From the sequence record NC_024786.1: a stretch of DNA of 64,000 nucleotides; one strand, 5' to 3'. How positions within the stretch are numbered: position 1 is the stretch's first letter; every line of letters starts with the position of its first letter. A program made the translations under genes and the position numbers. Source of the DNA: Escherichia phage vB_EcoP_PhAPEC5. The notes beneath the pieces were generated by a model. The model was not told the origin of the DNA. It made no database searches and worked only from the letters and a program-made list of their open reading frames with translations. This document shows, piece by piece, positions 2,600 to 39,728 of this stretch.

Positions 2600-3775
2600 A
2601 TGAACCAGATACCTCAGCACACACTTAGCGATGAACAACTCATGCGTGAGTATGACCGTATACAAGCGCAGGCATTTTTAGGCCGCAGTGCAGCGTTTTT
2701 TGGTTCATTGCTGTGTAGTCTTAAGTTCTCATGGAAACGTGAAGACTGTCCCACTGCATGTACTGACGGGATAGAACTCCATTTCAACCCAGACTTCTTT
2801 ATCTGGATGTGCCCTGATGCGAGAGAAACAGTGCTAATGCACGAACTCTGGCATGTGGCATATCTACATGGCATCCGCTGTGGAAGCCGTGACCCGGAAA
2901 TCTGGAACCAGGCATGTGACCACTTCATTAACCTTCAGTTAGAAGAAGACGGTTACAAGTTCACTGGTATCGACAAAGGCATTTGCAAAGACCCTCAATA
3001 TAAAGGATGGGTTGAAGAAGACATCTACGATGACCTGATGAAGAACCCTCAGAAAAGGCAGAAGCCGTCAGGGGGTGCTGGAGCAGGTCTTGCTGGCGAC
3101 ATGAAAGCTCCCTCTTCGGGGCAGTCCCAGGGTGCTGTTGTCAACAACGTAGTACGTGCAATGCAAAGCCAGAAGATGGCTGGTGGAATAATGCCAGGTA
3201 AAGGTGCTGGTCGTATGGAAGAGGTTATTACCCAATTCCTTAAACCAGTGGTTCCATGGCAGGAAGTCCTTATGGACTTCTTCACTGACATTGATGACTC
3301 ACGCTATACGTGGGCCAGACCTAACCGTCGTTTCACTGACATCTATCTACCGTCATTGGAAGATGATGAAGGACGTTTACGACACCTAGCTTACTTTGAG
3401 GATGTATCTGGTTCTATTAGTAGTTCTGACTCTCTGCGTTTTAACTCAGAGGTTGCCTACGTTAAAAGCCAGTTCAATCCTAAGAAGATGACCCTTATTA
3501 CCTTCGACGATATTATCCAAGAAGAAATAGACATCACTGAAGAAGATACCTTTGAAGAGATTAAGATTACTGGTCGTGGTGGTACAAACCTTGAACCAGT
3601 GCGTGAATGGATTATTGAGAATAAGCCAACCGCTGCAATCATATTCTCCGATATGTATGTTCGTCCTATGGAAGAGTTACCATTTGATATCCCTATCATC
3701 TGGTGTGTTCTGAATAATCCTAATGCTACCGTACCTTTTGGGGAGGTAGTTCATATCCCTAAAGGAATGAAATGA
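2600..3775 (+). CDS. VWA-domain protein with N-terminal HExxH metallopeptidase-like domain (partner of the MoxR ATPase)
   Basis: HELWH motif in N-terminal half; MIDAS-type DxSGS motif (FEDVSGSISSSD) in C-terminal half; gene order matches MoxR-VWA pairs. Confidence 0.55.
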   Translation: MNQIPQHTLSDEQLMREYDRIQAQAFLGRSAAFFGSLLCSLKFSWKREDCPTACTDGIELHFNPDFFIWMCPDARETVLMHELWHVAYLHGIRCGSRDPEIWNQACDHFINLQLEEDGYKFTGIDKGICKDPQYKGWVEEDIYDDLMKNPQKRQKPSGGAGAGLAGDMKAPSSGQSQGAVVNNVVRAMQSQKMAGGIMPGKGAGRMEEVITQFLKPVVPWQEVLMDFFTDIDDSRYTWARPNRRFTDIYLPSLEDDEGRLRHLAYFEDVSGSISSSDSLRFNSEVAYVKSQFNPKKMTLITFDDIIQEEIDITEEDTFEEIKITGRGGTNLEPVREWIIENKPTAAIIFSDMYVRPMEELPFDIPIIWCVLNNPNATVPFGEVVHIPKGMK

Positions 3776-4224
3776 TTATTAACCGCAGTCGTTTATTAGA
3801 GCTGGCTCCTATAAAGAACATGGTGGACTCTAAGCAAACCAGTAATGGTTTCTCTTGGGGTCTTACAGAATGCGGATACGATATTCGTATTAAGCAGGAT
3901 GTGACCATGTTCTTGGGGCGACGATTCGTACTAGCGTCAGCCATAGAAGAGTTCGACGTCCCACCAAACCTTATGGGCCGTGTACTTAATAAGAGTACAT
4001 GGGCCAGAAAGGGGATTGATGCAAGCATGACAACCAATATCGAACCGGGGTGGAAAGGTTTCCTTACCCTTGAGCTTCGTTATTCGGGTATTTTGCCTGT
4101 TAAAATAAAAGCTGGTACTGGCATAGCTCAGGTTATCTTCGAAGAGATAGCAGAGCATTGTCGTTATGAAGGTAAGTACCAGTGTCAACCAAACAAACCA
4201 GTAGCTGCTAGACCTTCAAAATAA
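3772..4224 (+). CDS. dCTP deaminase/dUTPase-fold protein (putative)
   Basis: ATGA overlap with upstream gene; motif GFSWGLTECGYDIRI resembles the dUTPase/dCTP-deaminase Gly-rich/DLR region. Confidence 0.45.
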   Translation: MIINRSRLLELAPIKNMVDSKQTSNGFSWGLTECGYDIRIKQDVTMFLGRRFVLASAIEEFDVPPNLMGRVLNKSTWARKGIDASMTTNIEPGWKGFLTLELRYSGILPVKIKAGTGIAQVIFEEIAEHCRYEGKYQCQPNKPVAARPSK

Positions 4225-27164: not shown

Positions 27165-27258
27165 GATGGGGTTCAATTCCCCCCAGTGGAGTAATCCACT
27201 AGCGTGCTTGGTGCACGAATAAGACTTAGTACTGGTGGTTCGATTCCATCCCCCGTTA
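27165..27258 (+). ncRNA. tRNA-like T-arm elements and hairpins
   Basis: TGGGG-TTCAATT-CCCCC hairpin, AGTGGA-GTAA-TCCACT hairpin, then T-arm GGTGG-TTCGATT-CCATC with acceptor-like CCCCGTT-A; no canonical cloverleaf found. Confidence 0.25.
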
Positions 27259-27452
27259 CCTGAAGTCGCCAGGTACTTATGGCAAACGGGTAGTAACGAA
27301 CTAGTCATTCGTCAAACGCCCACCCAATTATGAGTCAGCAAGAACGCCTTCACTTAAACTTAAACAAAAAAGCTTAACGCAATAATTATGTAGGGGTATG
27401 TAAGGATTGCGAAGAAGGAGCCAGTTAGAGCCTGGCATGACTCGCCCATTAT

Positions 27453-27526
27453 GTCCGCTTAGCTTAGACTGGGAAAGCAACCGACTAATAATCGGAAGGT
27501 CACTGGTTCAAATCCAGTAGTGGACA
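27453..27526 (+). tRNA. tRNA candidate (74 nt; anticodon loop CTAATAA, apparent anticodon AAT)
   Basis: Manual cloverleaf: acceptor GTCCGCT/AGTGGAC (7 bp, one G-T), U8, D-stem GCTT/AAGC with GG in D-loop, 4-bp anticodon stem CCGA/TCGG, 5-nt variable loop, T-arm ACTGG-TTCAAAT-CCAGT, discriminator A. Confidence 0.45.
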
Positions 27527-27756
27527 CCCATTCAGCAGTAACATAGTCCTGATTGCATAGCACTCTAAAGACAACACTGGTAAGACAGTCCAGTGGCTGC
27601 TAATGTATTGTTATTCCCCTCGACGGGAATTTCGCTAGTGAAGGTAACACTTAAAAATCCAAACCCACGTCTTACTACTATCGGGCTATCAACCCACGGT
27701 CGCTTAACCCTATAGTGGTAGTAGTTTGACGGCCTGCCTCGTTGACTGCGTTAAAG

Positions 27757-27797
27757 TCACTAAGTCCCTCAGAGCCGTCACTCTGGGGGACTTTTTT
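27757..27797 (+). terminator. Rho-independent terminator closing the structured region
   Basis: Stem TCCCTCAGAG / CTCTGGGGGA followed by TTTTTTATTT. Confidence 0.6.
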
Positions 27798-27825
27798 ATT
27801 TGAGCATTAATAATTGGATAATCAA

Positions 27826-27985
27826 TATGATTGATCTAATCTTAACCCCGTATGCCTATGAGGTAACGGATAACCGAGGATGTAAGTCTTTGGTATTTGC
27901 AGGTAGCGTAGCCTATAACAACGCAGTCATGTTTAAATACAAACTTAAACCACTCTATGAGGCTAATAATGGCAACAGTAAGTAA
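27826..27985 (+). CDS. small hypothetical protein
   Basis: ATG 27826 (tracked ORF starts at TTG 27800); 52 aa. Confidence 0.3.
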
Positions 27986-28349
27986 AGAATCAATCGAAGC
28001 TAAGATTAAGAGCGTCTACTATTTCAACGGTGCTGATGCAGTAAAGTCTGCCTTCGTTAACCCTTCTGCACTTCCGGCAGACGATTTGGCTAACCTGGGC
28101 CTGGTAACATACTGTATTATCATCCTGGAAAATGGCTTCAAAGTTGAAGGTGTATCTGCCTGTGTTGACCCAACCATCTATGATGAACAAAAAGGCCGTC
28201 AGTATGCATATGAAAATGCATTCGATAAGATTTGGGAAATGGAGGGTTACCTCCTACGTCAGGCATTACATGAGAAAGAGGAGACTGCTAAGGCTCTGGC
28301 TTCCTTTGCAGAAAACAACACCTGTGATGGTGGTGGTTGCACCATTTAA
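27969..28349 (+). CDS. hypothetical protein (possibly N4 gp49-family)
   Basis: ATG 27969 with GAGG RBS; sits two genes upstream of the virion RNAP as the N4 gp49-family gene does; weak similarity to the N-terminal half of the next ORF. Confidence 0.35.
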   Translation: MATVSKESIEAKIKSVYYFNGADAVKSAFVNPSALPADDLANLGLVTYCIIILENGFKVEGVSACVDPTIYDEQKGRQYAYENAFDKIWEMEGYLLRQALHEKEETAKALASFAENNTCDGGGCTI

Positions 28350-28467
28350 CAAATAAGAGTAAGGTGGTTTTTACCGAAAGGTACTGAACTACCCGACATG
28401 TGGTAAGGCTCATGAAGCCAAAACAAAACAAGCCCTCTTAGTGAGGGCTTTATCATTTGAGGTAGTT

Positions 28468-28956
28468 ATGTCAGAAGAAATTAAAGTTCACTTCACCAAC
28501 TACATTGGAACCAAGTGTGTAAATGGATTCCGGATGAACAAGGAAACATATTGCAAACTTCGTGGCTGGGATGTGCCTGCTAATGAAGACCCATTAGAAG
28601 TAGGTTACTTAGTAGAATACCCGGATTCTAAACCTAACCATGAGCAATTCCGTGGTTATATTAGCTGGTCACCAAGGGCTGCATTTGAAGCTGCATATTG
28701 TGATGTAGATAAGGGTTGTACTTTTGGTCACGCCGTAGAGCTTCTCAAAGCAGGCTTCAAACTAGCCCGTAAAGGTTGGAACGGTAAGGGAATGTATATC
28801 ACCTTAGTAACCGGTGAAAATTGGGCTATAGATAAACATGAGAATACTGTTTGTGAGAAACGGGATTGGCTGGGTATTAAGACCGTTGATAACCAATTTA
28901 TGCCATGGGTTCCATCCCAATCGGATGTATTAGCTGAAGACTGGGTATTAGTCTAG
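28468..28956 (+). CDS. DUF2829/Tad2-like domain protein (candidate anti-Thoeris sponge) fused to an N-terminal domain of unknown function
   Basis: C-terminal half carries KGWNGKGMYITLV ... PWVPSQSDVLAEDWVLV, matching the remembered DUF2829 pattern; ATG 28468 with GAGG RBS; tracked ORF starts at GTG 28441. Confidence 0.45.
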   Translation: MSEEIKVHFTNYIGTKCVNGFRMNKETYCKLRGWDVPANEDPLEVGYLVEYPDSKPNHEQFRGYISWSPRAAFEAAYCDVDKGCTFGHAVELLKAGFKLARKGWNGKGMYITLVTGENWAIDKHENTVCEKRDWLGIKTVDNQFMPWVPSQSDVLAEDWVLV

Positions 28957-28966
28957 TAAGAATTAA

Positions 28967-28992
28967 AGCCCCTCATTAGAGGGGCTTTTTTA
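28967..28992. terminator. Bidirectional rho-independent terminator at the strand switch
   Basis: Stem AGCCCCTC / GAGGGGCT with loop ATTA, A-tract upstream and T-tract downstream; between convergent + and - strand genes. Confidence 0.65.
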
Positions 28993-28994
28993 TT

Positions 28995-31900
28995 TTAGTT
29001 TACTAAGTTCATCCAAGGATTCAGGTTATGGGCACGAAGACCCTGACCAAAGCCCCATGAGTAATCCAGACTACCCTTAGCAGCAATGCTAAAGATGTTA
29101 TCCTGAATAGGTAAACCAACGTTACCAAACATGGTAGGAGTTGGAGCCAGCATAGCCATTGCTGCATGTACTGGGTTATTACGAATCATGGAAACTGCAA
29201 CTTTTGCAGAACGAATCTTAAAGTTGTAGAACCACATCAGACCAACACTTTCCATATACCCACGGAAGCGACCAGGTAAACGGTCATAGTTAACGAACTC
29301 TTCCGTCACACGTCCTAGTGCTTCTTCACGAGTCTTACCCTTACGCTGAGTCAATTCATCATAGATGATTGCTTTAGCGATAAAGTCAGAGTACTCAACC
29401 GTCTTCTGTATACCCTGGAACAAAGCAGTATCTTTAGTGATAAGTGCATAGCGACCGGCAGTACGTACTGACTTAGGTAACTTATCAGCCAGCTTATCCA
29501 TGTATTCATGAAGTTTACCTTCAGTAATCAGGATGTCATCACGACCGATACCAGCATCTGCAATTGAAGAGAACTCACCAGCTTCTAACAGAGGCCAGAT
29601 ACTCATACGCTTATGGCTATCAGTAATGGACTGAATCTCAGCCTTAAGTTTACGAATCTGGTTCGGGTTAGTAGCTGCACGTAATTCTGCTTCTGCATCT
29701 ACCTGACGCAGACGAGATTTAAGGTACTGGTTAATCTCAGCAGTTTTCTGTGGGATGCTCTTAGCAATGTTCTTAACTGGTACACCACGAGCAACCATCT
29801 GGTAAAGGTTAGCCAAGAAGTTAACAGCAGGTACGACTACTGACTTAACTACAATCAGAGTCTTAGCTTCTTTAACTAAGTTCTGAACCAGGTTCTCACC
29901 ACCCATTGTGTACTTATAAGCACGGTTGCCAAATACACCCAGCATAGCTTTCTTGAAGGTATCCAGTGTTTCCGGGGACCAACGAGAATTACCAGACCAA
30001 GCATCACCTACAGAAGCTGCACGATAACCAAGTGCATCATTAAGCATGTCACGACGCACCCACAATTCACCCTCACCGAACAAACTCTCTGCTTTCTGAC
30101 GTGTTTCACTGTTCATCAGCTTAAGAGCATCAGCAGTTACTGGGTCCAGTTTTGAACCAAGAAGGTTAACGTACTGGGACTTATTAGAGGCAGACATCTT
30201 AATGTCATTCTCATACATGCTATGCAGGTTCTCAATCAGCATATCGTTGAAACGCTGAGCCTTAGCTTCTTCCACCTGACGACCACGCCATATACCAATT
30301 GCACGGGCAAGATGGTTCTCACCTTCAATATGCTTCAGCATGTTAGGGTCAATGGATTGCTCATAGGCAACCACATTACCTTTATCATCATATACAGGCA
30401 GGAGTGGTTCATTACCACGTTCACCACGAGCCAGTGCTTTAGTGATACGGTCTACGGAAGGCTTGTCAGTGATACGACCAGCTACCATGGAACCCATCGT
30501 AAAGCCTGTGCCGAGGTCTACGCCACCAGCAGTATCACGAACGTTCTGTAGGATACCCTGTGAGAATGGAGCCTGTGCCTGTACCGGTGCGAAGTAGTAG
30601 CTACGTGCCGGACCACGGTTAGCAGAGCTACCCTGATAAGTACCCAGACGTACATAAGATTTCTCAATCAAATCAGCAAACTGATTATCTTCAGCAACAA
30701 TCAGATTAACACCCTGTTTGTTCTCACTAGGGATATGCCCTTTGTACTGGTTCAGGGTTGCACGCATATCAGATTTGGCTTTAGCCATTTCATCTTTACG
30801 TTGACCAACTAGATAAGAGGTAGCAAAGTCCATCCCATCAACTTCTGTCTGAGCCAGTGAAGATAACATCTCACGGTCGGACTTGTTCATTGCTTCCAGT
30901 GCATACAAAGTAATCAGCTTATCCAGTTGAGCTACATCTACAGTAGAGCGAGCAGCCTGACGTTCACCCAGCATACGAGAGATTGCAGTAGCATTACGCA
31001 GCAGGTTATTACCGACTGTACCGTTAATCATGTACTGAGCCAGTTGCTTAGATTTACGGTTAATCAGGGGCCAGTTACGACCAGCTTGCTTCTGCAAATC
31101 TGCTTCCAGCTTGTTCACTTCACGGTCAACAATCTTCTGGTCAGATAGCAGGTCACGGATTTCAGCCAGAGACATAGTGTCACGCAGAACAGCTAAGTCA
31201 GTTTTACCCATACCAGTGTGCATTGCTTTCCACTCATCATTAGTCAGCTTACGGCTGAACTTAGATGCGATAGTGGTAGGCAAATGTTCACGGAATTGTT
31301 GACGGTCAGCTTGTACCTGTGCACGAACTGCTTTAATTAAATCATATACAGAAGCATTGCTCTTAGTACGACCGGTTAAGTCATTAACCAGGTCATGGAA
31401 AGGTTGCCATACCTTACCCTGGTTCATTGCAGCCATAACACCTTCAGCTACGATTGCACCATTCTTCTCTGTAGCAATAGCAGCTACCAGTTGTGCAGCA
31501 TGAGCAGCACCTTTGACCAATGGGTTCTTAGTATTAGCTGCAACTTCACGAGCACTCTCTAAAGCACGAGTAGACAATGCATCAATAGAATCCACCAGAT
31601 ACTGGTTAGCACGGTCAATAGCATTACCACTAGGTGTGGCAACGGAATCATAGAATGACTGTGCATTGAGACTAGTCTGCATGATTGTCTGTGCCAGTGC
31701 ATCCATACCTTCCTGTACGTTAGTAGCTTTAGTGTCACCTGCTACACGAGCATTCAGGCTAGCCATTGCAGCAGTACCAATGTTAGTCAGCATTGCATCA
31801 ACGGTATTACCGGATTGCTTATCTGCTTTCATAACTGGAATGTCAACCAGTACATTACGTACATCTTCACTTACCATTGCCAGAGCTACAAAGGTAGGCA

Positions 31901-34900
31901 GTAAGGAAGAACGACCCTGTGCATCAAACTCAATGTTGTTAGCACCCATGATGGTATCGAACTTCTGCTGTGCATAGTAACGGTCAGCAGGGTTAGTACT
32001 ATCCGGGTCAGCCATGAATGATTCAACGGTCAGGTTCTTGGTAACATGTGCATAGTATTCCTGTGCACGAGAAAGAGCAGCCGGACTAATAGCAGCTTCG
32101 GTAGCCAAAGCAGCAACGATATTAGTGAACAGGCGTTGTTCCTGCATATTCATAGTGAAACCATGAGCCTGAACATCACGGGTTACTTTAGTAGCATTCA
32201 CTACTGCATCAGAGAACTTACCTTTACGAATTACTTGCTGTACTGGTTCTGAACCAATGTAGTTAGTAATCAGCTTATCAAAGGTCTTCCCTAGCTCTTC
32301 CAGACGATTATTGTCACCATATGCTTTGTTATGGAACAAGGTAGTGTCTTTGGATACAGCAGCAGTAGGAGCCTGTCCACGCATAACTACTGAGGAGTTA
32401 AACAGTAATCCTGAGAACATATCATCTGCATTAGCAGGAGCTTTCTTGCGACCAAATACCAGACGCTTGATTGCTTCATATACAGACTGAACCATAGTTT
32501 TCAGTGCTGTGGTCTTCTTCTGCTTACCAATCAGTTCACGGTTGGTTAAGCCCCAAGCCATGTACTCATTCAGTGCAGCAGCTTTAGCCATTGCTGGTTC
32601 AATGAAGCCATTAGACAAATGACCATTAATGGTATTGAGTGCATCAGCATATGCTTCACGTACTGCCGGAGATTCATCCTTAACATCCAGAGTACGGAAC
32701 TGGTTCATCAAGTCTTCAATATTCTGGACTGCTTCGTTAGGAGTACCCTCATAATGAGCCAGTACGGATTCAAAAGTAGAAGCATGTACCAATTCATGAA
32801 CCAGAGTCTCTAAGGAAGGGGTAACTAAGTAGATGGTCTTATCGTCGAAGTTAGTCCAGCCATATGCATTACCCGCTTCGGCAGCTTCAATATCTTCAGG
32901 TGCTGGGCGAGTAATGTTCTTCTCAATAGCGTAAGCATCCAGTTGAGCAGGAGTACCGTAAACAACCTTATAGTCTTTGGCAGCAAGGGAGTTCTGTACT
33001 TCTTTCAATACTGCCTGCTGTTCAGGAGACATCTCTTTAGCCAGCTTAGTGATAGCAGTATTGGACAGCAGACGTACACCAGACTTAAGTACACGACCAA
33101 CCTGTTCCATTGCCGGTACTTCTTTCACTGGTTCTGCTTTAGCAGCACGCACTGCATCACGTCGCTTGTTTAATTCAGCATCAAACAGTTCATTCAGCTT
33201 AGCTACTTGCTGGTCTACCGTCAGACCTTCCAGAGAGATTTTACCGTTGTTCACGTAAGGAGCACCCACAGCAGCCATCTGGTCAACAGTGGTCTGTACC
33301 TGGTTCATTACTTTGTGGCGAATATCTACACCCAGCGCAATGTTACGCAGGTTACGTTCAATCTGTTCAGCACCTACACGTAACAGGTCATCGGTAGCAC
33401 CTTCACGCTGGTCATATTCCAGAGCAGATTTAGCGATAGCCTGTTTGGTTTCATCAGACAGTTTGCTGAAATCTACATTCTTCATGAACTTAGCATAGGA
33501 GTCATAAACATTCTTGATAGGGTTCCCCTGCCAAGAAGTGTATACAGCCTCGTTAGCTTTACGACTTGCATCAGTGATGTCATTGATACCAATGTTCATA
33601 CCATCAAAGATTTTCAGGGTATTCTTCGGAGCACCTTTCATAGTAGAAAGGGTCTGCATCATCATGCCATCACCAGTGCCGATGGTCATAAATGGAATAC
33701 CTGCAACACCTGCCTGAGAAGGAGCATAGATGCTCATTGGCACACGCATACGGTCATCTAAGTTGGTAGCCAGTACTTGGTTAGCAACATCAGTATTCTC
33801 ACTACCAGCAATGTAGAAAGTCTGTGAACCAGTCTCAATCATTGGAGCCAGCGGAGATAATGATTCCTGGATTTCATTCAGTTCTTTCTGAGTTAAGAAA
33901 TCACCCTTCTTCCAGGTTGGGTCTTTTTCTTTTTCTGCCAGCTTAGCCTGTACTGCTTGTTGGAACATATCCTGCAATACCAGAGACTGAATCTGGGTAG
34001 CCTTCTGCAAGTTCTCAGTAGAGTGCATCAGACCATCGCCAACAGTATTCTGAATACCAGTACGCATTGGTTCAACGAACAGGTGGAGCATGTTCTCTTG
34101 TAAGTTCTTCAGGGCATTACCGGATACGGTAAATTTCTGAGGGTCTAACTTACCAGTCAGAGCACCATCTACTTGCTGAATAGACAATTCACCTTTACGC
34201 ATAACTGGAACATTGCCAGTCAGTGCTTCCATAGAAGTAAGGAAAGTATCCAGCATTGCCTGAGCATCAGCTTCAGACGCAGCCTCCTTACCAAACATTG
34301 CCATAGCTGGGGAAATGCTAGGGTCAGCAGCCCGTGCTTGCAGAACGTCACTGAAGCGTTCGTAGATGGTGTCAGTAATTGCACTAACCATCTTGCCAGC
34401 AATACCACGTGCACCAGAACCATAGATGGTAATGGTAAGTGGGTTCTTAGCGATACCACGTTTCAGGTCCAGAGTACCGTCTTCATTCAGGTTAAAGTCT
34501 TTAATGAACAGGTCCATTATCTTCTGGAGATGATTCATCTGGCTCATAACAGGAACGTTGTTACGGTAAGTAGTACGTAACTCATTCAGTGCTTGTTGAA
34601 GACCATTGGTAGATGCTTCATACAGGTCAACACTGTCATCCTGTGAACGATGTTCGTTCATAGTCTTACCGGCTTTACCGAAGAACAGACCACCTTTAGC
34701 AGTATTCTTAATCCAGTCTGGGGTGAACTTACCACCAGTCATTAATACCATTGCGTTAATTGGGCCGTTGGTTACACCATCAGCTTCAACGTACAGTGGG
34801 GTATTAAAGTTGGCACGGTCATCGCTGTTCAGGTAACGGGCATATTCCATCAGAGCCATGAGAGCTACGAAGGATTTGTCACCACCCAGGGAGGTCTTAA

Positions 34901-37900
34901 GAATATCTACTGCATCAGCAGGCAAGTGACCAGACTTATCAAACTCAACCATCATATCAACAGCAGGTTTCAGATTACCTTCCAGAGCCTTGGTCAGCTT
35001 TTCAGACATAGCTTCACGGGACATGTTATGTACCTTGATACCTAATGCCTGAGCCAGGCCTACCTGGAAGTCAGAGAACGCTTGGCTGTTTTCATTACTC
35101 AAGTCGATAGTAGAGAAGGTCGGCAGAATTGCTTCACGAACCAGTTTACTGGATTGTGGGTTATTCTTACCAAGCATCTGCATACGACCTACACGGGTCA
35201 TGTTGTAACCGTAGTGAATAGGTGTATCCAGACCAGCTTCTTGTTCCTGTACCTGATTAATTACACCGAACAGGGAATCATATGCCATAGACACAGACAG
35301 GTTTTTACCTTCCAGTGACTTAGCAGTGTTCACGTTCAGCAATTCAGGATTAAGAGTACCAGCTCCCATCAGCTCCAGAATATTGTCACGGCCCATTGCT
35401 TCATAGAAGTTAACCATCGGCATGTGCACACGGAACTCAGTAGCCTGTTCGGCTTTCAGAGCAGCTTTCTGTTCTGGGGTATTCTTAACAGCAGGGTTAC
35501 GCAACTGAGTTTGAGCCACGGAAGGAATGTCATCACCAAAATACATTTTCTCTTCTGGTTCTAAGAGGACAGCTTCCTCAATAGCAGTAGGGAACTTGTT
35601 AATGGCATCGTTATCATCCAGCTTCTCAATAGTATACAGGCCAACAGTCTTATTGGAGTCTGGGTCAATCTCAGACACATCCAGCATAGACTCTTTAACT
35701 TCACCCATCTCAATGAGGGAAGACAGAATCTCTGTAGCCATTGCCATAGGAATACCCTTGGTATAACCCAGTGGTGCATTAGGGTTACGATTCAAACCCC
35801 AGTAGGATTCAATCTTCTGAGCCAGTGAGTTAGTAGCTTCAACCAGAGTCTGGGCATTCTCAAACTCAGCCAGAATACCTTCTGGTAACAGAGATGCTTC
35901 TACACCAGTAATAGCAGCTACGTCTTTCATATCTTTAACGGCAGCATTCTGTGTAGCAGTCAGTCGCCATTGCAGTCCAGCAAGTACAGCAGTCTCTAAC
36001 AACTGGTCATTGAACTTAAAGGTATCTCCGTCTTTCTCTACGATGTTAAGTAACTTACCACCTACCCAACGGTTAGCTTCAGTACCTTCTGCAAAACGTT
36101 TACCAACATTCTTATTAGCAAGGAACTTAGCCAGTCGCTCAGACAGAGTAGTCTTCAGAGTTTCCCCAAAGTCCATCAAGTCCTGATAACGTTTCATCAC
36201 ATCACTAGTGAGAGCGTTATTTTCTTTTTGAGTGAATGCTTCAAAGCGAGCAGCAGAAGAGAGTGCTTGCTTAATATCAGCTAAAGGAGATTCAGAACCA
36301 ATGGTACGAGACTTAGGTTCCTCTGGTAAGGCAAATGCTTTCAGGAACTGGTTCGGTGTCTTTTCATTGTTATAGACAGGGAACACTGTTTCCATTTCAG
36401 AAAGAGGTTTGCCACCCACTGTATATTCTGCTTTCAGCTGAGCCAGTGATACTTCATCCTTCTCCACGTTGTTAGTGTTACGACCAGAGGTATCTACACC
36501 AACCAGAATCTGTGCATTATTAGCTTCAACGAAAGACTGAACAGTATTGAATTGTTCAGCAGTCAGCTTCTGATTATCAAACAGTTGCAGAGATACGAAT
36601 GGTTGCTCACTACCTTTGTAGAAGGTAGCACGTACAGCACCTGTATCCAGAGACATGTCACGATAGCCATCATGACCAAATACGTCAGACAGGCTGATAT
36701 GGTCACCATTAGAACCAACCACAGTACCATCAGCAAACAGCCATGGACTCTCTCTACGGTCACCATACTTATTAAGAGTTTCCTGTGAAATAGTATTTTC
36801 TTTCACATAAGCATCTACTGTTTCAGATTCAGTAGTAGAGACTTCTTCTGCTTTTGGACTAGTCTCCTTAGTAGGAGCAGTCTTATTTTCTACCACAGGT
36901 TTAGCTTTAGGCTGTACAGTAGTAGTGTCCTCTTGCACTGGTGCAGGAGATTTATCAACCCGATTCACTGGTTCATTAGTCTGTTGAGACTGAGTGGCAT
37001 CAAGACCACCTTGACGGAACTCTTTAACTACCTGGGCAGCTGGCTTGTTCAGACGTGAATCTAACGAGGTAACTTTCACATGAGAAACATTAAGCTCCGG
37101 GTAAGCCGTAGCAAGTGCATTAGCAATATCAGCTACGGTCTTGGCTTCCAGTCCTACTTGCTGGGCAAACTTAACAGACTTGGTATCGTAAGGATTGACA
37201 CCGAGGCCAGTACGACTACGTACCCATTCACGGGAAGGCGAGAGAGCCTGATAATGAACAGACTTATTCTTATCCGCATTCCCCGAAATCAGATGCTCAT
37301 TCAACGCTCCGACCTTATTCTGCATGTGCTGGGCGAACTTCATAAAGTCGCTCAGATAAGCGGAGGCCAAATCGAAGTTACCAGAGTTATACGCAGAACG
37401 AATGCGTTTCGCATGTTGCAACGCAGAGTACTGTCCTTCATTAGAACGAGACTCATCGGTTTTAATCTGTTTACTAACAATATCTTGAGGACGTAAGCCT
37501 AGTTCTTCTGCTTTAGCGTCGAACTCACGTGCACCCTGTAACAAGGCAGCAGCAGATTGCAGGGCAGCACGTTGACGATTCCCCAGTGTAATCTTACCTT
37601 CACTTGCATGCTTCAGAACCATGTTCACTGAGTCTGCATCCAGTACTTCTGGAGATACATCAGCAGCCATAGCAATATTGTTTGCTTGGGCTTGATTAGC
37701 TTCTTCAGTAGATTTCAGCTTACCTGCTTCAGCCTGTTCCTGAATCATGGAATGGATGGCACGGAATGCACGAAGTACTTTCGGGGTATTCTGTACGTTA
37801 GCCATCAGGCCGGAGAACTGGTCAACAATTGCAGCAGCAGGAGAACCTTGTTCCAGATTAGCCAGAGCACCTGGGTCACGGTTAATGAAGCTATCCATAG

Positions 37901-39728
37901 ACATGATGTTGTCATACATCTGGATTGCAGCTTCCATTTGAACGTTAGGGTCTTCAGCAGTATTAACCAAGTCAGCCATCTTCTGAATAGCTTCTACACG
38001 GTTAGTGGAACCAGAAACAGCTTCACGGATTGCCGGATTAGCTTGTTCTAATTCTACTGGGTCAAAGTTCATTGCCTGTGTTAAGTCAGAAGCATATTGG
38101 GTAGCAGCAGCTTTCTCTTCAGGAGAGATGTCCATTGCGTCTACTGCTTCCTGTACAGTCGCCTGTGCTTGCTCTGCTTGAGCAGTAGCTTCCTGTGCAG
38201 CAGCACTAACCGTAGCATCAGCTACAGGGGATGCCTGTTCATTACGCTTAGCAACTTCTTCTCCACGTTGAACCAGGATGTTAGTAATAGGGGAGGCAGC
38301 TTTTGCTAATGCATTACCAACCAGAGAAGCACCAGCCAGGGTAGTACGTACAGTAGGAGCAACGGCAGCACCAGCAGCTTTAACAGTTGCACCAGGAGCT
38401 TGAGCAACTCCAGCACTACCGAAGCCATAGAGTGCACCAAGACCTGCTTGTTCACCGACCCCTTTGAGGGTATCACGGGATGCATCAACATTTTCCTTGA
38501 TTGCAGTGTTCTGTGCGAACTGTCCGAAGCCGGATTGAATACCTTCTTCAACTGTTTCACGCAGCATATTAGAACCAGCACCTGCCAGTGAACCTACCTT
38601 AAGTGGGTTAAGTTCAAAGCGAGATACCAGTGGACCGGTAGCAGCAGCAACTGGAGCAGTTAAGCCAGCAGCAGTGATACCTGTTTCAGATGCAGTCTGA
38701 CGTCGTGCTTCATCAGGAGATAAACCATCAGCAATATGCTGTTGGTAAACAGGAGACTTACTTGCCAATTCTTGATGGGACATCTTCATGATTTCAGAAG
38801 CAGTCTGTTGGTATGCACCACCAGCTTCCATGCCACCGATTGCTACAGCAGGTGCAGCAACACGACCAGCAGAGAGTGCAACCTGTGCAGGACGTGAACC
38901 TAACCCAGCAGCTAAGGTAATACCCTTAACAGCTTTGTCACCACCTACCATTACTTTACCAAGTGCAGATACACCACGAATAAGTGGACCACCAGTAAAG
39001 AGGGAACCAATACCTTCGCTCAATCCGTCGGAAGCAGCCATACCATTATCAAGTGTATTAGCAACAGAATCAAAAGCGTCACGACCAATGCGAGACAAGG
39101 AGGCAACCAAATCACTCTCCCCGTTTTTAATGTCTTCTTCGTAGAGTTTCTGGTTCTCTTGTGCAGTAATCTGGTTCTGATTCTGAACAACTTTACGGGT
39201 AGCAGTCAGTGCATCAGACTGTAGATTGTGTACACCTTCATTCAACCAATCCATCCCGGAAGCAATGGATGCCCCGGCATTATCATTGACCAGACCTGTG
39301 CCAAGAGCAGCAATGCCCCCAAGGGTATTAGCAACACCAAGACCAACACCAGAAAGAGTATCGCCAAATGCTTCTGCGTTAGTACGTTGTTTAGATAAGT
39401 CCTGACGTACAACATCAGCAGCATTAGCTCGGCTATTAATAATCTGTAGACCTTGCTCATTACCATACTTATTAAGGATTTCTAATGGGGAGGCTTGTGT
39501 GAAATCAGCCTGAAGTGAACCTGGTTCGAATGCACCGATTCCAAGATTACCTACTCGTCCAGTCTGGAGATTGTAAGCATTCTCTGGGGTTAATTGGAAA
39601 GGGCTTTGCCCTTGTGCAGCTTGCTTCTGGGAGGTTGCAGTAGAGACATCGACTTGCTTAGCATTAGTGATGCTGTCTGCGAAACCTGCCAGACGGTCAA
39701 ATGTTGACATAGCATGTTTCCTGTTCAA
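28995..39728 (-). CDS. virion-encapsidated RNA polymerase (N4 gp50-like giant vRNAP)
   Basis: Single 3,577-aa ORF at the start of the minus-strand late block; size and position match the approx 3,500-aa N4 vRNAP. Confidence 0.85.
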   Translation of the reverse strand: MNRKHAMSTFDRLAGFADSITNAKQVDVSTATSQKQAAQGQSPFQLTPENAYNLQTGRVGNLGIGAFEPGSLQADFTQASPLEILNKYGNEQGLQIINSRANAADVVRQDLSKQRTNAEAFGDTLSGVGLGVANTLGGIAALGTGLVNDNAGASIASGMDWLNEGVHNLQSDALTATRKVVQNQNQITAQENQKLYEEDIKNGESDLVASLSRIGRDAFDSVANTLDNGMAASDGLSEGIGSLFTGGPLIRGVSALGKVMVGGDKAVKGITLAAGLGSRPAQVALSAGRVAAPAVAIGGMEAGGAYQQTASEIMKMSHQELASKSPVYQQHIADGLSPDEARRQTASETGITAAGLTAPVAAATGPLVSRFELNPLKVGSLAGAGSNMLRETVEEGIQSGFGQFAQNTAIKENVDASRDTLKGVGEQAGLGALYGFGSAGVAQAPGATVKAAGAAVAPTVRTTLAGASLVGNALAKAASPITNILVQRGEEVAKRNEQASPVADATVSAAAQEATAQAEQAQATVQEAVDAMDISPEEKAAATQYASDLTQAMNFDPVELEQANPAIREAVSGSTNRVEAIQKMADLVNTAEDPNVQMEAAIQMYDNIMSMDSFINRDPGALANLEQGSPAAAIVDQFSGLMANVQNTPKVLRAFRAIHSMIQEQAEAGKLKSTEEANQAQANNIAMAADVSPEVLDADSVNMVLKHASEGKITLGNRQRAALQSAAALLQGAREFDAKAEELGLRPQDIVSKQIKTDESRSNEGQYSALQHAKRIRSAYNSGNFDLASAYLSDFMKFAQHMQNKVGALNEHLISGNADKNKSVHYQALSPSREWVRSRTGLGVNPYDTKSVKFAQQVGLEAKTVADIANALATAYPELNVSHVKVTSLDSRLNKPAAQVVKEFRQGGLDATQSQQTNEPVNRVDKSPAPVQEDTTTVQPKAKPVVENKTAPTKETSPKAEEVSTTESETVDAYVKENTISQETLNKYGDRRESPWLFADGTVVGSNGDHISLSDVFGHDGYRDMSLDTGAVRATFYKGSEQPFVSLQLFDNQKLTAEQFNTVQSFVEANNAQILVGVDTSGRNTNNVEKDEVSLAQLKAEYTVGGKPLSEMETVFPVYNNEKTPNQFLKAFALPEEPKSRTIGSESPLADIKQALSSAARFEAFTQKENNALTSDVMKRYQDLMDFGETLKTTLSERLAKFLANKNVGKRFAEGTEANRWVGGKLLNIVEKDGDTFKFNDQLLETAVLAGLQWRLTATQNAAVKDMKDVAAITGVEASLLPEGILAEFENAQTLVEATNSLAQKIESYWGLNRNPNAPLGYTKGIPMAMATEILSSLIEMGEVKESMLDVSEIDPDSNKTVGLYTIEKLDDNDAINKFPTAIEEAVLLEPEEKMYFGDDIPSVAQTQLRNPAVKNTPEQKAALKAEQATEFRVHMPMVNFYEAMGRDNILELMGAGTLNPELLNVNTAKSLEGKNLSVSMAYDSLFGVINQVQEQEAGLDTPIHYGYNMTRVGRMQMLGKNNPQSSKLVREAILPTFSTIDLSNENSQAFSDFQVGLAQALGIKVHNMSREAMSEKLTKALEGNLKPAVDMMVEFDKSGHLPADAVDILKTSLGGDKSFVALMALMEYARYLNSDDRANFNTPLYVEADGVTNGPINAMVLMTGGKFTPDWIKNTAKGGLFFGKAGKTMNEHRSQDDSVDLYEASTNGLQQALNELRTTYRNNVPVMSQMNHLQKIMDLFIKDFNLNEDGTLDLKRGIAKNPLTITIYGSGARGIAGKMVSAITDTIYERFSDVLQARAADPSISPAMAMFGKEAASEADAQAMLDTFLTSMEALTGNVPVMRKGELSIQQVDGALTGKLDPQKFTVSGNALKNLQENMLHLFVEPMRTGIQNTVGDGLMHSTENLQKATQIQSLVLQDMFQQAVQAKLAEKEKDPTWKKGDFLTQKELNEIQESLSPLAPMIETGSQTFYIAGSENTDVANQVLATNLDDRMRVPMSIYAPSQAGVAGIPFMTIGTGDGMMMQTLSTMKGAPKNTLKIFDGMNIGINDITDASRKANEAVYTSWQGNPIKNVYDSYAKFMKNVDFSKLSDETKQAIAKSALEYDQREGATDDLLRVGAEQIERNLRNIALGVDIRHKVMNQVQTTVDQMAAVGAPYVNNGKISLEGLTVDQQVAKLNELFDAELNKRRDAVRAAKAEPVKEVPAMEQVGRVLKSGVRLLSNTAITKLAKEMSPEQQAVLKEVQNSLAAKDYKVVYGTPAQLDAYAIEKNITRPAPEDIEAAEAGNAYGWTNFDDKTIYLVTPSLETLVHELVHASTFESVLAHYEGTPNEAVQNIEDLMNQFRTLDVKDESPAVREAYADALNTINGHLSNGFIEPAMAKAAALNEYMAWGLTNRELIGKQKKTTALKTMVQSVYEAIKRLVFGRKKAPANADDMFSGLLFNSSVVMRGQAPTAAVSKDTTLFHNKAYGDNNRLEELGKTFDKLITNYIGSEPVQQVIRKGKFSDAVVNATKVTRDVQAHGFTMNMQEQRLFTNIVAALATEAAISPAALSRAQEYYAHVTKNLTVESFMADPDSTNPADRYYAQQKFDTIMGANNIEFDAQGRSSLLPTFVALAMVSEDVRNVLVDIPVMKADKQSGNTVDAMLTNIGTAAMASLNARVAGDTKATNVQEGMDALAQTIMQTSLNAQSFYDSVATPSGNAIDRANQYLVDSIDALSTRALESAREVAANTKNPLVKGAAHAAQLVAAIATEKNGAIVAEGVMAAMNQGKVWQPFHDLVNDLTGRTKSNASVYDLIKAVRAQVQADRQQFREHLPTTIASKFSRKLTNDEWKAMHTGMGKTDLAVLRDTMSLAEIRDLLSDQKIVDREVNKLEADLQKQAGRNWPLINRKSKQLAQYMINGTVGNNLLRNATAISRMLGERQAARSTVDVAQLDKLITLYALEAMNKSDREMLSSLAQTEVDGMDFATSYLVGQRKDEMAKAKSDMRATLNQYKGHIPSENKQGVNLIVAEDNQFADLIEKSYVRLGTYQGSSANRGPARSYYFAPVQAQAPFSQGILQNVRDTAGGVDLGTGFTMGSMVAGRITDKPSVDRITKALARGERGNEPLLPVYDDKGNVVAYEQSIDPNMLKHIEGENHLARAIGIWRGRQVEEAKAQRFNDMLIENLHSMYENDIKMSASNKSQYVNLLGSKLDPVTADALKLMNSETRQKAESLFGEGELWVRRDMLNDALGYRAASVGDAWSGNSRWSPETLDTFKKAMLGVFGNRAYKYTMGGENLVQNLVKEAKTLIVVKSVVVPAVNFLANLYQMVARGVPVKNIAKSIPQKTAEINQYLKSRLRQVDAEAELRAATNPNQIRKLKAEIQSITDSHKRMSIWPLLEAGEFSSIADAGIGRDDILITEGKLHEYMDKLADKLPKSVRTAGRYALITKDTALFQGIQKTVEYSDFIAKAIIYDELTQRKGKTREEALGRVTEEFVNYDRLPGRFRGYMESVGLMWFYNFKIRSAKVAVSMIRNNPVHAAMAMLAPTPTMFGNVGLPIQDNIFSIAAKGSLDYSWGFGQGLRAHNLNPWMNLVN

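What the first reader, a model, noticed from the sequence alone, without database searches (positions are those of the whole stretch)
28468..28956. Candidate anti-defence protein: DUF2829/Tad2-like domain fused to an extra N-terminal domain
The C-terminal half (GHAVELLKAGFKLARKGWNGKGMYITLV ... DWLGIKTVDNQFMPWVPSQSDVLAEDWVLV) matches from memory the DUF2829 pattern (KGWNG...PWxxSQxDxLAEDW) of Thoeris anti-defence Tad2 proteins that sequester cyclic ADP-ribose signals. It carries an additional N-terminal domain of about 80 aa weakly similar to the upstream gene (27969-28349), so it would be a fusion or paralogue pair. It lies just before the strand switch, next to the structured RNA region.
Basis: partly seen in the sequence, partly recalled or inferred. 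Interest (0 to 1): 0.6.

Follow-up and report, generated by a model that had tools for sequence, protein, structure and literature searches.

The report
N4 gp49-like Tad2 sponge fusion
This phage gene encodes a recognised type of "sponge" domain, predicted to soak up a bacterial alarm molecule, joined to a widespread, unnamed 80-residue domain that is fused to alarm-molecule sponges in many other phages and so probably also counters bacterial immunity.

Summary
The ORF at 28468-28956 (+) is real and encodes 162 aa. The window is an N4-like E. coli phage (Gamaleyavirus, 97.6% identical to PhAPEC7). The gene is the orthologue of N4 gp49 (88.8% aa identity).

Residues 84-162 are a clear Tad2 domain:
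- PF11195 match, E=1.6e-24.
- SPO1 Tad2 and ModTad2 structures match at TM 0.8 and 42-44% identity.
- 8 of 10 gcADPR-contact residues are identical.
- The long cyclic-dinucleotide-binding insertion of HgmTad2 is absent.

Residues 1-83 are a separate, confidently folded small alpha/beta domain. It has no Pfam, NCBIfam or PDB match. That upstream gene is Acb4 (PF13876), the orthologue of N4 gp48, an experimentally shown nucleotide sponge.

The N-domain family is large (about 2000 clusters). Its identified fusion partners are almost all sponge domains: Tad2, Sequestin, Acb4, the Acb2/Tad1 hairpin and RyR-Tad. It also occurs alone. It is homologous to the strand-swapped dimerising N-domain of RyR Tad (hhalign 97%, E=5e-11).

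Verdict: the Tad2 assignment is solid and already annotated in some public records. The N-domain is an uncharacterised module linked to sponges and is worth testing. No binding or immunity experiment exists for this protein.

The parts
28468..28956 (+). CDS of 162 aa plus stop. Orthologue of phage N4 gp49. Two-domain protein: N-domain followed by a Tad2 domain.
   Evidence: ORF and translation. 88.8% aa identity to N4 gp49. phrog_872 matches the full length at E=5.6e-66. 571 homologous clusters, and 119 of the 120 best listed cover 91% or more of the query.
28468..28716 (+). N-terminal domain, aa 1-83. Small alpha/beta (SH3/Tudor-like) module with no family name. Homologous to the N-domain of RyR Tad and a recurrent fusion partner of sponge domains.
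28717..28953 (+). Tad2 (DUF2829, PF11195) sponge domain, aa 84-162. Predicted ligand-contact residues: W104, N105, I137, T139, D141, W147, S150, S152, D153.
   Evidence: PF11195 E=1.6e-24. PDB sequence hits: ModTad2 9eib 3.4e-17, SPO1 Tad2 8sme 2.4e-14. Foldseek TM (target-normalised) 0.69-0.86 to SPO1 Tad2 and ModTad2 chains, most about 0.8, at 39-45% identity; all 24 significant hits are Tad2/AcrIIA7 entries. Contact residues taken from the paper and mapped.
28459..28462 (+). Shine-Dalgarno GAGG, 5 nt before the ATG.
   Evidence: Read directly from the sequence.
28430..28450 (.). Intergenic stem-loop (8 bp, 5 G-C pairs) between acb4 and this gene. Its T tail is weak, so it may be a leaky terminator or a processing/stability element. 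Its role was not tested.
   Evidence: Consensus scan. In N4 the two genes overlap instead, sharing one base at record position 34003.
28965..28988 (.). Bidirectional intrinsic terminator hairpin (10 bp, 6 G-C pairs; T run on the + strand). It ends both this gene and the convergent vRNAP gene.
   Evidence: The same element is annotated as a terminator on both strands in PhAPEC7.
27969..28349 (+). Neighbouring gene acb4 (PF13876), orthologue of N4 gp48. It is a separate sponge gene, not a paralogue of the N-domain.
   Evidence: PF13876 E=2.7e-25. 47% identity, E=2e-45, to N4 gp48. N4 gp48 = Acb4 is necessary and sufficient to trigger Panoptes (PMC12657230). PF13876 = Acb4 family.

Best explanation
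The gene encodes the Gamaleyavirus orthologue of N4 gp49, a two-module anti-immune-signalling protein.

It sits in the anti-signalling gene hotspot that N4-like phages carry between the primase and the virion RNA polymerase. It lies directly after acb4.

C-terminal module (aa 84-162). This is a Tad2-family sponge. By homology it assembles as a homotetramer. It should trap TIR-made ADP-ribose-derived alarm molecules in pockets between protomers, lined by W104/N105 and W147/S150/S152/D153, so the Thoeris effector is never switched on. Candidate ligands are 1''-3' gcADPR (3'cADPR) and possibly His-ADPR or N7-cADPR.

N-terminal module (aa 1-83). This is a separate small beta-rich domain homologous to the N-domain of RyR Tad. 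By that homology it most likely pairs two chains by swapping its first strand. Three observations suggest it has an anti-defence activity of its own, with an unknown target, rather than being a passive linker:
- The family also occurs as stand-alone proteins of 73-95 aa.
- It keeps about 20 near-invariant polar and aromatic residues.
- Its identified fusion partners are almost all sponge domains.

Shown here: domain identities, folds, residue conservation, purifying selection, fusion statistics and synteny.

Inferred, not shown: oligomeric states, ligands and any effect on immunity.
For: Tad2 module:
- PF11195 E=1.6e-24.
- phmmer to solved ModTad2 and SPO1 Tad2, 3e-17 and 2e-14.
- Foldseek returns only Tad2/AcrIIA7 structures, TM up to 0.86.
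- Of the ten SPO1 Tad2 residues that contact 1''-3' gcADPR or its ordered waters (W25, N26, I63, T65, D67, H71, W73, S76, T78, D79), eight are identical here. T78 becomes S. H71 becomes M, and H71 is also not kept in the active ModTad2.
- W104, N105, W147 and S150 are invariant and D153 nearly invariant in 31 family members.

Context:
- Synteny with N4 gp43 to gp50.
- A 2026 preprint reports this interval in N4-like phages as an anti-signalling hotspot holding Tad2, Acb4 and Sequestin.
- The neighbour is Acb4. A homologue of Bes1 lies upstream (42% identity).

N-domain:
- Model pLDDT 92.7.
- 1094 representative clusters at 50% identity and 1961 clusters at 90% identity.
- Pfam partners among 149 representatives: Sequestin 51, Tad2 42, Acb4 21, Acb2/Tad1 hairpin 5, plus AP2 and HNH, both in one protein, P0249.
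- Architecture table; 17 of 148 representatives are stand-alone. 37 of the top 120 profile hits have no Pfam domain, and many of those are 73-95 aa.
- Homology to RyR Tad gp68 N-domain: hhalign 97.1%, E=5e-11. A BFVD fold hit to a RyR-domain phage protein supports this. The gp68 crystal structure shows a strand-swapped dimer.
- Both domains are under purifying selection: dN/dS against N4 is 0.05 for the N-domain and 0.09 for Tad2.
Against: - There is no biochemical or genetic test of this protein or of N4 gp49 in the searchable literature.
- Tad2 homologues differ in which signal they bind. [quoted passage not shown] Others bind cUMP or N7-cADPR. The ligand therefore cannot be read from the sequence.
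- The only tested relative of the N-domain (CB1 gp68 residues 1-86) showed no anti-type-I-Thoeris activity alone, and the ligand in that crystal sits in the C-domain. That relative is only 29% identical over the aligned stretch. On my reading of that alignment it lacks several near-invariant residues (R32, W34, E50, N57).
- The N-domain is not obviously basic, unlike typical sponge pockets (my reading of the consensus).
- Oligomer geometry was not modelled.
Confidence: 0.7

Rival explanations
1. Dual sponge. The N-domain is itself a nucleotide-signal sponge of a new family. It would bind a second immune messenger, for example a CBASS, Pycsar or type III CRISPR nucleotide or another TIR product, in pockets formed at its dimer interface. 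One polypeptide would then neutralise two pathways, as shown for Acb4-Tad2 and Acb4-Sequestin fusions.
For: - Sequestin was discovered by exactly this fusion logic: sponge domains are often fused to each other.
- The identified partners of the N-domain are almost all sponge families.
- The published screen searched Pfam families, so a domain without a Pfam entry would have been missed.
- Stand-alone N-domain genes exist without a known sponge gene next to them.
- About 20 near-invariant residues include K16, R32, W34, E40, Y47, E50, Y51, N57, Y64, S66, W67 and S68.
- Selection is tighter than on the Tad2 domain.
Against: - No ligand is known.
- The divergent gp68 N-domain had no activity against type I Thoeris and carried no ligand in the crystal.
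- The fold resembles SH3/Tudor-like protein-binding barrels only weakly (Z no higher than 4.5). It resembles no known nucleotide binder.
Confidence: 0.3
2. Pure scaffold. The N-domain only dimerises or stabilises the sponge oligomer by strand swapping, or tunes its solubility or turnover. It has no target of its own.
For: In the RyR Tad crystal both domains mediate dimerisation. The N-domain swaps strand beta1, and the C-domain alone is sufficient for activity. In most fusions the N-domain lies on the N-terminal side of Tad2, Sequestin or Acb4.
Against: - Abundant stand-alone forms of 73-95 aa, sampled in three unrelated genomic contexts, are hard to explain for a mere scaffold.
- Tad2, Acb4 and Sequestin oligomerise without it.
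- Conservation of many surface-type polar residues exceeds what a dimer interface needs.
Confidence: 0.25
3. Anti-CRISPR. The protein acts as a Cas9 inhibitor like AcrIIA7. This is the older annotation for DUF2829, still propagated as 'anti-CRISPR protein' in phage Mimir124.
For: AcrIIA7 (HgmTad2) carries the same Pfam domain. PDB hit 8kbi has E=7.5e-11. Mimir124 labels both this gene and acb4 as anti-CRISPR.
Against: - Binding of AcrIIA7 to Cas9 was never shown, and DUF2829 proteins were shown to be signal sponges.
- The sequence match to AcrIIA7 covers only the first 30 residues of the domain.
- To my knowledge E. coli has type I, not type II, CRISPR-Cas.
- The 'acr' label on acb4 is also contradicted by experiment.
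Confidence: 0.03
4. Not anti-defence. The protein serves phage DNA metabolism or transcription. For example the Tudor-like N-domain might dock on host RNA polymerase, as CarD, Mfd and UvrD domains do.
Against: - The partner domains point to signal sponges, not transcription.
- The Tad2 ligand pocket is intact.
Confidence: 0.04

Closest known systems
SPO1 Tad2 (Gp34.65; PDB 8SME/8SMF/8SMG) and the Tad2/DUF2829 family (PF11195)
   Same: Same Pfam domain and same fold (TM 0.80-0.86, 42-44% identity). It has the same N-terminal helix plus antiparallel sheet. Eight of ten gcADPR-contact residues are identical. The insertion between beta2 and beta3 is short (19 aa here, 24 in SPO1).
   Different: SPO1 Tad2 is a single-domain protein of 89 aa. 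This protein carries an extra 83-aa domain directly on the N-terminus of helix alpha1, which is the helix that forms the tetramer interface in SPO1 Tad2. H71 becomes M and T78 becomes S. Ligand binding is untested.
ModTad2 / MoTad2 (PDB 9EIB, 8V3E), the His-ADPR and cUMP sponge
   Same: Best PDB sequence hit (E=3.4e-17, about 43% identity) with the same fold.
   Different: [quoted passage not shown] Whether this protein shares that specificity cannot be told from the sequence. ModTad2 has no N-domain.
HgmTad2 / AcrIIA7 and SptTad2 (PDB 8KBI-8KBM, 8WJD)
   Same: The core DUF2829 gcADPR site (the WN and S-x-[ST]-D motifs) is conserved.
   Different: These proteins bind cyclic dinucleotides through a 41-residue insertion. 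The equivalent segment here is 19 residues, so that second pocket is not expected.
RyR Tad (Pectobacterium phage CB1 gp68; bioRxiv 10.64898/2026.06.04.730250)
   Same: Same two-module plan in an N4-like phage hotspot: a homologous N-terminal domain (hhalign 97.1%, E=5e-11) followed by a gcADPR sponge domain. The N-domain is described there as a fold of unknown function that is often a single ORF and forms a strand-swapped dimer.
   Different: The C-terminal sponge is a helical ryanodine-receptor-repeat domain, not Tad2. The gp68 N-domain is only 29% identical over the aligned stretch and, on my reading of that alignment, lacks several residues that are near-invariant in the main family. gp68 lies next to the primase, not next to the vRNAP.
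Fused sponges: Acb4-Tad2 (Pasteurella phage Pm86), Tad2-Sequestin, Acb4-Sequestin (Ab09 gp59, YH6)
   Same: One polypeptide combines modules from the phage anti-signalling toolkit. The Pseudomonas examples (Ab09 gp59, YH6) are in N4-like phages.
   Different: In those fusions both modules are characterised sponges. Here the second module has no known ligand. Ab09 gp59 is only 147 aa and contains no N-domain.
Phage N4 gp49 (ABK54417.1)
   Same: Direct orthologue: 88.8% identity, same two domains, same position as the last rightward gene before the vRNAP.
   Different: In N4 the gene overlaps gp48 (acb4) by one base. Here a 118-nt spacer with a hairpin separates them. I could find no published function for N4 gp49.

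Membership tests
Tad2 / DUF2829 (PF11195) | Match to the family profile above Pfam's gathering score | tested here: met
   86.7 bits against a cut-off of 25, E=1.6e-24, profile positions 2-73 of 73.
Tad2 / DUF2829 (PF11195) | Tad2 fold (N-terminal helix plus antiparallel beta sheet), superposable on solved Tad2 structures | tested here: met
   Foldseek: all 24 significant PDB hits are Tad2/AcrIIA7 entries. SPO1 Tad2 TM 0.80-0.86, ModTad2 0.69-0.84.
Tad2 / DUF2829 (PF11195) | Conserved gcADPR-pocket residues (SPO1 W25, N26, W73, S76, D79 and others; HgmTad2 W21/N22 and S90/T92/D93) | tested here: met
   W104, N105, I137, T139, D141, W147, S150 and D153 are identical. T78 becomes S152 and H71 becomes M145. 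W104, N105, W147 and S150 are invariant and D153 nearly invariant across 31 homologues.
Tad2 / DUF2829 (PF11195) | Homotetramer with ligand pockets between protomers | not tested
Tad2 / DUF2829 (PF11195) | Binds and sequesters a TIR-derived signal and relieves Thoeris immunity | not testable with these tools
   Needs binding assays and plaque assays. No published test of N4 gp49-type proteins was found.
HgmTad2-type Tad2 that binds cyclic dinucleotides | Long insertion (about 41 aa) between beta2 and beta5 that forms the cyclic-dinucleotide pocket | tested here: not met
   The equivalent segment is 19 aa (TGENWAIDKHENTVCEKRD), shorter than the 24 aa of SPO1 Tad2, which does not bind cyclic dinucleotides.
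Sequestin (PF21825), considered for the N-domain | Match to PF21825; all-helical 60-80 aa protein | tested here: not met
   No PF21825 hit for the focal protein or for 41 N-domain sequences. The N-domain is alpha/beta. In fusions PF21825 occupies a different segment.
   BLASTP E>3. hhalign probability 0.3%. The upstream gene itself does meet PF13876 (E=2.7e-25).
RyR Tad N-terminal domain family (unnamed) | Sequence and fold homology to residues 1-70 or so of CB1 gp68 | tested here: met
   hhalign 97.1%, E=5e-11, gp68 residues 3-68. BFVD Foldseek hit to the Yersinia phage TG1 RyR-domain protein, E=2.4e-4, TM 0.70.
RyR Tad N-terminal domain family (unnamed) | Strand-swapped dimer (beta1 inserted into the partner) | not tested
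   Known only from the crystal description. No multimer modelling was available.
Lockin | Elongated beta-rich protomer forming cog-like hexamers; family reported absent from complete phage genomes (INPHARED) | tested here: not met
   The N-domain is found in 120 INPHARED records. It is a compact 4-stranded, 2-helix domain. No Lockin sequence was available for direct comparison.

The most novel reading that the evidence does not exclude
The 80-residue N-terminal domain is the founding member of a new, very widespread family of phage anti-defence modules. It has about 2000 clusters at 90% identity and is found in phages of Enterobacteria, Vibrio, Pseudomonas, Bacteroides and Clostridium. Most likely it is a sponge for an immune signal that Tad2, Acb4 or Sequestin do not cover. 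It would have been missed by fusion-based screens because it has no Pfam entry. N4 gp49-type proteins would then be dual-specificity sponges.
Probability: 0.3. Interest if true: 0.75.

Novelty: new variant of a known kind. Interest (0 to 1): 0.5.

Why it matters
The Tad2 half is routine. It adds the N4 and G7C-like coliphages, which are widely used model and therapy-candidate phages, to the list of phages predicted to disarm Thoeris-type TIR signalling. It also shows that this phage carries two sponge genes side by side, acb4 and tad2.

The more useful result concerns the N-terminal domain. This unnamed 75-80-residue module is under strong purifying selection. It exists alone and is also fused to at least five unrelated sponge families. 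The same reasoning led to the discovery of Sequestin.

If the module has its own target, it would be a new anti-immunity family. It could also be a handle for finding the bacterial signal or protein it neutralises. If it is only a dimerising scaffold, it would explain how phages build multivalent sponges from modules.

Either outcome can be tested directly with N4, a classic laboratory phage whose gp49 is 89% identical to this protein.

Tried and rejected
1. N-domain as a paralogue of the upstream gene: rejected (BLASTP; hhalign 0.3%).
2. N-domain as Sequestin: rejected. There is no PF21825 hit and the secondary structure is wrong.
3. N-domain as Lockin: rejected on description and distribution.
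5. Pfam at E up to 10 on 41 N-domains: no recurrent family. NCBIfam: nothing for this protein, acb4, gp46 or gp47.
6. A hidden N-domain in Ab09 'Acb4-Sequestin' gp59: rejected, since that protein is only 147 aa.
7. Prior experimental tests of N-domain-Tad2 fusions in Hadary et al.: the motifs GYISWSP, YLVEY and WSPK are absent from the table of tested proteins.
8. Known sponge genes next to stand-alone N-domain genes: none in three contexts. No 'split fusion' support was obtained.
9. The afdb50 fold library was unavailable.
10. phmmer of Acb4 against the PDB did not retrieve SPO1 Acb4, which is too divergent. I could not establish what 'PDB 6E3C' in Hadary et al. is.
11. The GTG start at 28441 was rejected in favour of ATG 28468.
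12. Rfam scan of 25500-29100: only tRNA-Ile passes threshold.
Full report
WHAT IS THERE

The window is an N4-like coliphage. The 1.3 kb around the finding is 97.6% identical to Escherichia phage vB_EcoP_PhAPEC7 (Gamaleyavirus, Schitoviridae), and 68 phage records match it. The 3577-aa ORF on the minus strand (28995-39728) is the virion RNA polymerase.

The finding's ORF runs from ATG 28468 to the stop at 28954-28956 and encodes 162 aa. GAGG lies 5 nt upstream of the ATG. A bidirectional terminator hairpin sits at 28965-28988.

It is the orthologue of N4 gp49. Overall identity is 88.8%, with 92.6% in residues 1-83 and 84.8% in residues 84-162. RefSeq already labels the PhAPEC7, ECBP1 and Bp4 copies 'DUF2829 domain-containing protein'. 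Shigella phage Moonfish labels its copy 'Thoeris anti-defense 2-like protein', and Mimir124 labels it 'anti-CRISPR protein'.

THE C-TERMINAL HALF IS A TAD2 DOMAIN

- Pfam PF11195 matches aa 85-162 over the whole profile: E=1.6e-24, 86.7 bits against a cut-off of 25.
- phmmer against PDB sequences finds ModTad2 (9EIB/8V3E, 3.4e-17), SPO1 Tad2 (8SME, 2.4e-14) and HgmTad2/AcrIIA7.
- An AlphaFold2 model from a 31-sequence alignment has mean pLDDT 88.7. Searched against the PDB with Foldseek, it returns 24 significant hits. All are Tad2/AcrIIA7 entries, with target-normalised TM 0.80-0.86 to SPO1 Tad2 at 42-44% identity.

Yirmiya et al. list the SPO1 Tad2 residues that contact 1''-3' gcADPR or its ordered waters: W25, N26, I63, T65, D67, H71, W73, S76, T78 and D79. 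Mapped through the HMMER alignment, these correspond here to W104, N105, I137, T139, D141, M145, W147, S150, S152 and D153. Eight are identical and one is conservative. The H71 position is also not kept in the active ModTad2. The mutations that abolish gcADPR binding in HgmTad2 (W21/N22 and S90/T92/D93) fall on W104/N105 and S150/S152/D153.

The insertion that lets HgmTad2 and SptTad2 bind cyclic dinucleotides is 41 aa, against 24 aa in SPO1 Tad2. It is only 19 aa here, so that second pocket is not expected.

Ligand specificity remains open. Tad2 relatives bind 3'cADPR, His-ADPR, N7-cADPR or cUMP, and this domain is about equally distant from SPO1 Tad2 and ModTad2.

THE UPSTREAM GENE IS ACB4, NOT A PARALOGUE

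ORF 27969-28349 matches PF13876 (E=2.7e-25) and is 47% identical to N4 gp48 (E=2e-45). PF13876 is the Acb4 sponge family (Chang et al.). N4 gp48 = Acb4 is necessary and sufficient to trigger the Panoptes counter-defence (Doherty et al.).

The N-terminal domain of the focal protein shows no similarity to it. BLASTP gives E>3 and profile-sequence hhalign gives probability 0.3%. The Pfam name 'N4 Gp49' for PF13876 does not correspond to GenBank N4 gp49, which may have encouraged the confusion.

THE N-TERMINAL DOMAIN

Residues 1-83 fold confidently on their own: pLDDT 92.7, pTM 0.79, with strands at 10-13, 17-24, 45-51 and 64-69 and helices at 25-32 and 70-76. No named family or solved structure matches the domain:
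- No Pfam family, even at E up to 10 on 41 members.
- No NCBIfam model.
- No PDB sequence relative with a profile search.

The family is nevertheless large. A single-sequence exhaustive search finds 1094 clusters at 50% identity with E of 1e-3 or better. A profile search finds 1961 clusters at 90% identity with E of 1e-5 or better. tblastn finds the domain in 120 of 50,697 phage records, from Escherichia, Vibrio, Klebsiella, Pseudomonas, Clostridium and other hosts.

About 20 positions are at least 90% conserved across representatives that are no more than 50% identical to each other: G14, K16, M23, Y28, R32, W34, P37, E40, G46-Y-L-V-E-Y51, N57, G63, Y64, S66-W-S-P69, F73 and Y77.

WHAT THE N-DOMAIN TRAVELS WITH

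I scanned the 149 best representatives against Pfam. Sponge domains accounted for all but two co-occurring families:
- Sequestin PF21825: 51
- Tad2 PF11195: 42
- Acb4 PF13876: 21
- Acb2/Tad1 hairpin PF24729: 5

The two exceptions, AP2 and HNH (one each), both lie in a single protein, P0249.

Local HMMs gave this architecture table for 148 proteins:

| Architecture | Count |
|---|---|
| N-domain-Tad2 | 41 |
| N-domain-Sequestin | 33 |
| N-domain followed by an unassigned region of at least 60 aa | 20 |
| N-domain alone | 17 |
| Acb4-N-domain-Sequestin | 9 |
| Acb4-N-domain | 6 |
| N-domain-Acb4 | 3 |
| Rarer orders | 19 |

Among the top 120 profile hits, 71 carry Sequestin, 12 carry Tad2 and 37 have no Pfam domain. 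Many of the last group are stand-alone proteins of 73-95 aa.

Three stand-alone genes that I looked up have no recognisable sponge gene beside them. One of them sits directly before a 4450-aa minus-strand gene whose size and position resemble a virion RNA polymerase, so it may occupy the same hotspot in another N4-like phage; I did not check that gene's identity.

LINK TO PUBLISHED WORK

A June 2026 preprint (10.64898/2026.06.04.730250) describes an anti-signalling hotspot in N4-like phages, between the primase and the virion RNA polymerase. It contains Tad2, Tad3, Acb4, Sequestin and the 'Bes' genes.

[quoted passage not shown] In the crystal that domain forms a strand-swapped dimer. Residues 1-86 alone had no anti-type-I-Thoeris activity.

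I retrieved gp68 and found its residues 3-68 homologous to the N-domain profile (hhalign 97.1%, E=5e-11, 29% identity). Independently, the N-domain model hits a RyR-domain protein of Yersinia phage TG1 in BFVD (E=2.4e-4, TM 0.70). The N-domain is therefore fused to a fifth sponge family.

On my reading of the alignment, the gp68 copy lacks several near-invariant residues of the main family (R32, W34, E50, N57). Its inactivity is therefore weak evidence about the canonical domain.

The screen that discovered Sequestin looked for Pfam families fused to Tad2 or Acb4. A domain with no Pfam entry would not have been seen. The tested Tad2 panel of Hadary et al. contains no N-domain motif.

SELECTION AND MODULARITY

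Nei-Gojobori estimates of dN/dS:

| Comparison | N-domain | Tad2 domain |
|---|---|---|
| N4 | 0.05 | 0.09 |
| Moonfish | 0.15 | 0.11 |

Both halves are functional.

The two halves have different histories inside the genus. Against Mimir124, dS is 0.20 for the N-domain and 0.86 for Tad2. Phage E20 is 98.8% identical in the N-domain but only 66.3% identical in Tad2. This points to recombination at the domain boundary.

MECHANISM

Most likely, the protein is made with Acb4 during the pre-late phase. Its timing is inferred from its position with the N4 gp43-gp49 replication genes and from the terminators and RBS. Expression was not tested.

The C-terminal domain should tetramerise and sequester a TIR-derived ADPR signal, blocking activation of ThsA-type effectors. 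This is by homology and I rate it about 0.8.

The N-domain most likely dimerises by strand swap, by homology to RyR Tad. I think it more likely than not that it has a target of its own. I give about 0.3 that it is specifically a nucleotide sponge and about 0.25 that it is only a scaffold.

An anti-CRISPR role and a transcription or replication role are unlikely.

NOVELTY AND VERDICT

The Tad2 assignment is correct but already annotated in some public records, and Tad2 genes in N4-like hotspots have been reported. N4 gp49-type N-domain-Tad2 fusions have not been tested in anything I could search.

What is new here is the size of the N-domain family, its lack of any family name, its strong constraint, its occurrence alone, and its near-exclusive fusion to sponge domains wherever the partner can be identified. 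That makes the gene a new variant of a known kind, with a concrete and testable lead.

Noticed in passing
window 25600-27800: About 2.2 kb has no ORF longer than 94 aa in an otherwise tightly packed genome. It holds only a tRNA-Ile (27452-27530, anticodon AAT). Rfam gives sub-threshold hits to tmRNA-like models at 26339-26547 (27 bits against a gathering score of 47). N4 has a similar unannotated gap between gp47 and gp48 (about 1.5 kb).
   Followed up: partly
L003 (PhAPEC7) 3669-4157 versus window 28468-28956: PhAPEC7 differs from the window by six amino-acid changes, all in the N-domain: Y12N, G20R, M23I, E50V, Q60H and S68L. M23I, E50V and S68L hit invariant or near-invariant positions of the family, and Y12 and G20 are also widely conserved. 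There are only two synonymous changes, and no change at all in the Tad2 half. This could be a decaying or adaptively inactivated N-domain, or errors in the older record.
   Followed up: partly
window 28468-28956 versus phages E20 (OP745616) and Mimir124 (L001): Mosaicism at the domain boundary. E20 is 98.8% identical in the N-domain but 66.3% in the Tad2 domain. Against Mimir124, dS is 0.20 for the N-domain and 0.86 for Tad2.
   Followed up: partly
proteins P0133, P0138, P0144, P0145, P0170, P0195, P0201, P0209, P0221, P0223 and others: Twenty N-domain proteins carry C-terminal partners of at least 60 aa that my Tad2, Acb4 and Sequestin HMMs did not match. Some look like Acb2/Tad1 hairpins (an FNPSG-type motif), but I did not scan them individually against Pfam. 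P0170, P0195 and P0223 share one partner domain, and most of the others are singletons. By the fusion logic these are candidates for further sponge families.
   Followed up: partly
protein P0249 (354 aa): An N-domain-Tad2 protein whose Tad2 domain is interrupted or preceded by HNH_3 plus AP2 domains. This looks like a homing endonuclease inserted in, or read through into, the sponge gene.
   Followed up: no
L001 3654-3884 (Mimir124); L002 3661-4090 (Moonfish): Close relatives carry one or two extra small genes between the tad2-like gene and the vRNAP (phrog_9565 in Mimir124; gp17 and gp16 in Moonfish). These are absent from this window. This end of the hotspot gains and loses genes.
   Followed up: no
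window 24576-25130: The N4 gp46 orthologue, annotated as RuvC-like in relatives, is 42% identical (E=2e-47) to Ab09 ORF60. That protein is 'Bes1', reported to help evade CBASS and Thoeris by an unknown mechanism. The window therefore carries a Bes1 homologue, acb4 and tad2 in one interval.
   Followed up: partly
window 27800-27985: A small ORF (61 aa from its TTG start; phrog_34266, E=4e-22) overlaps the start of acb4 and directly follows a strong terminator at 27762-27793. It is conserved in Mimir124 and Moonfish. Its function is unknown.
   Followed up: no
Pfam PF13876 and public annotations: Naming is inconsistent. Pfam calls PF13876 'N4 Gp49/Sf6 gene 66', but the N4 member is GenBank gp48 (= Acb4). 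GenBank gp49 is the N-domain-Tad2 protein. Mimir124 labels both genes 'anti-CRISPR protein'.
   Followed up: yes
L011 3001-3279 (metagenomic 92-kb contig): A stand-alone N-domain gene lies just before a 4450-aa minus-strand gene. The size and position of that gene resemble a virion RNA polymerase, so this may be the same hotspot position in a distant N4-like phage. I did not check the gene's identity. An acyl-carrier-protein-like ORF (PP-binding, E=8e-7) lies next to the N-domain gene.
   Followed up: no
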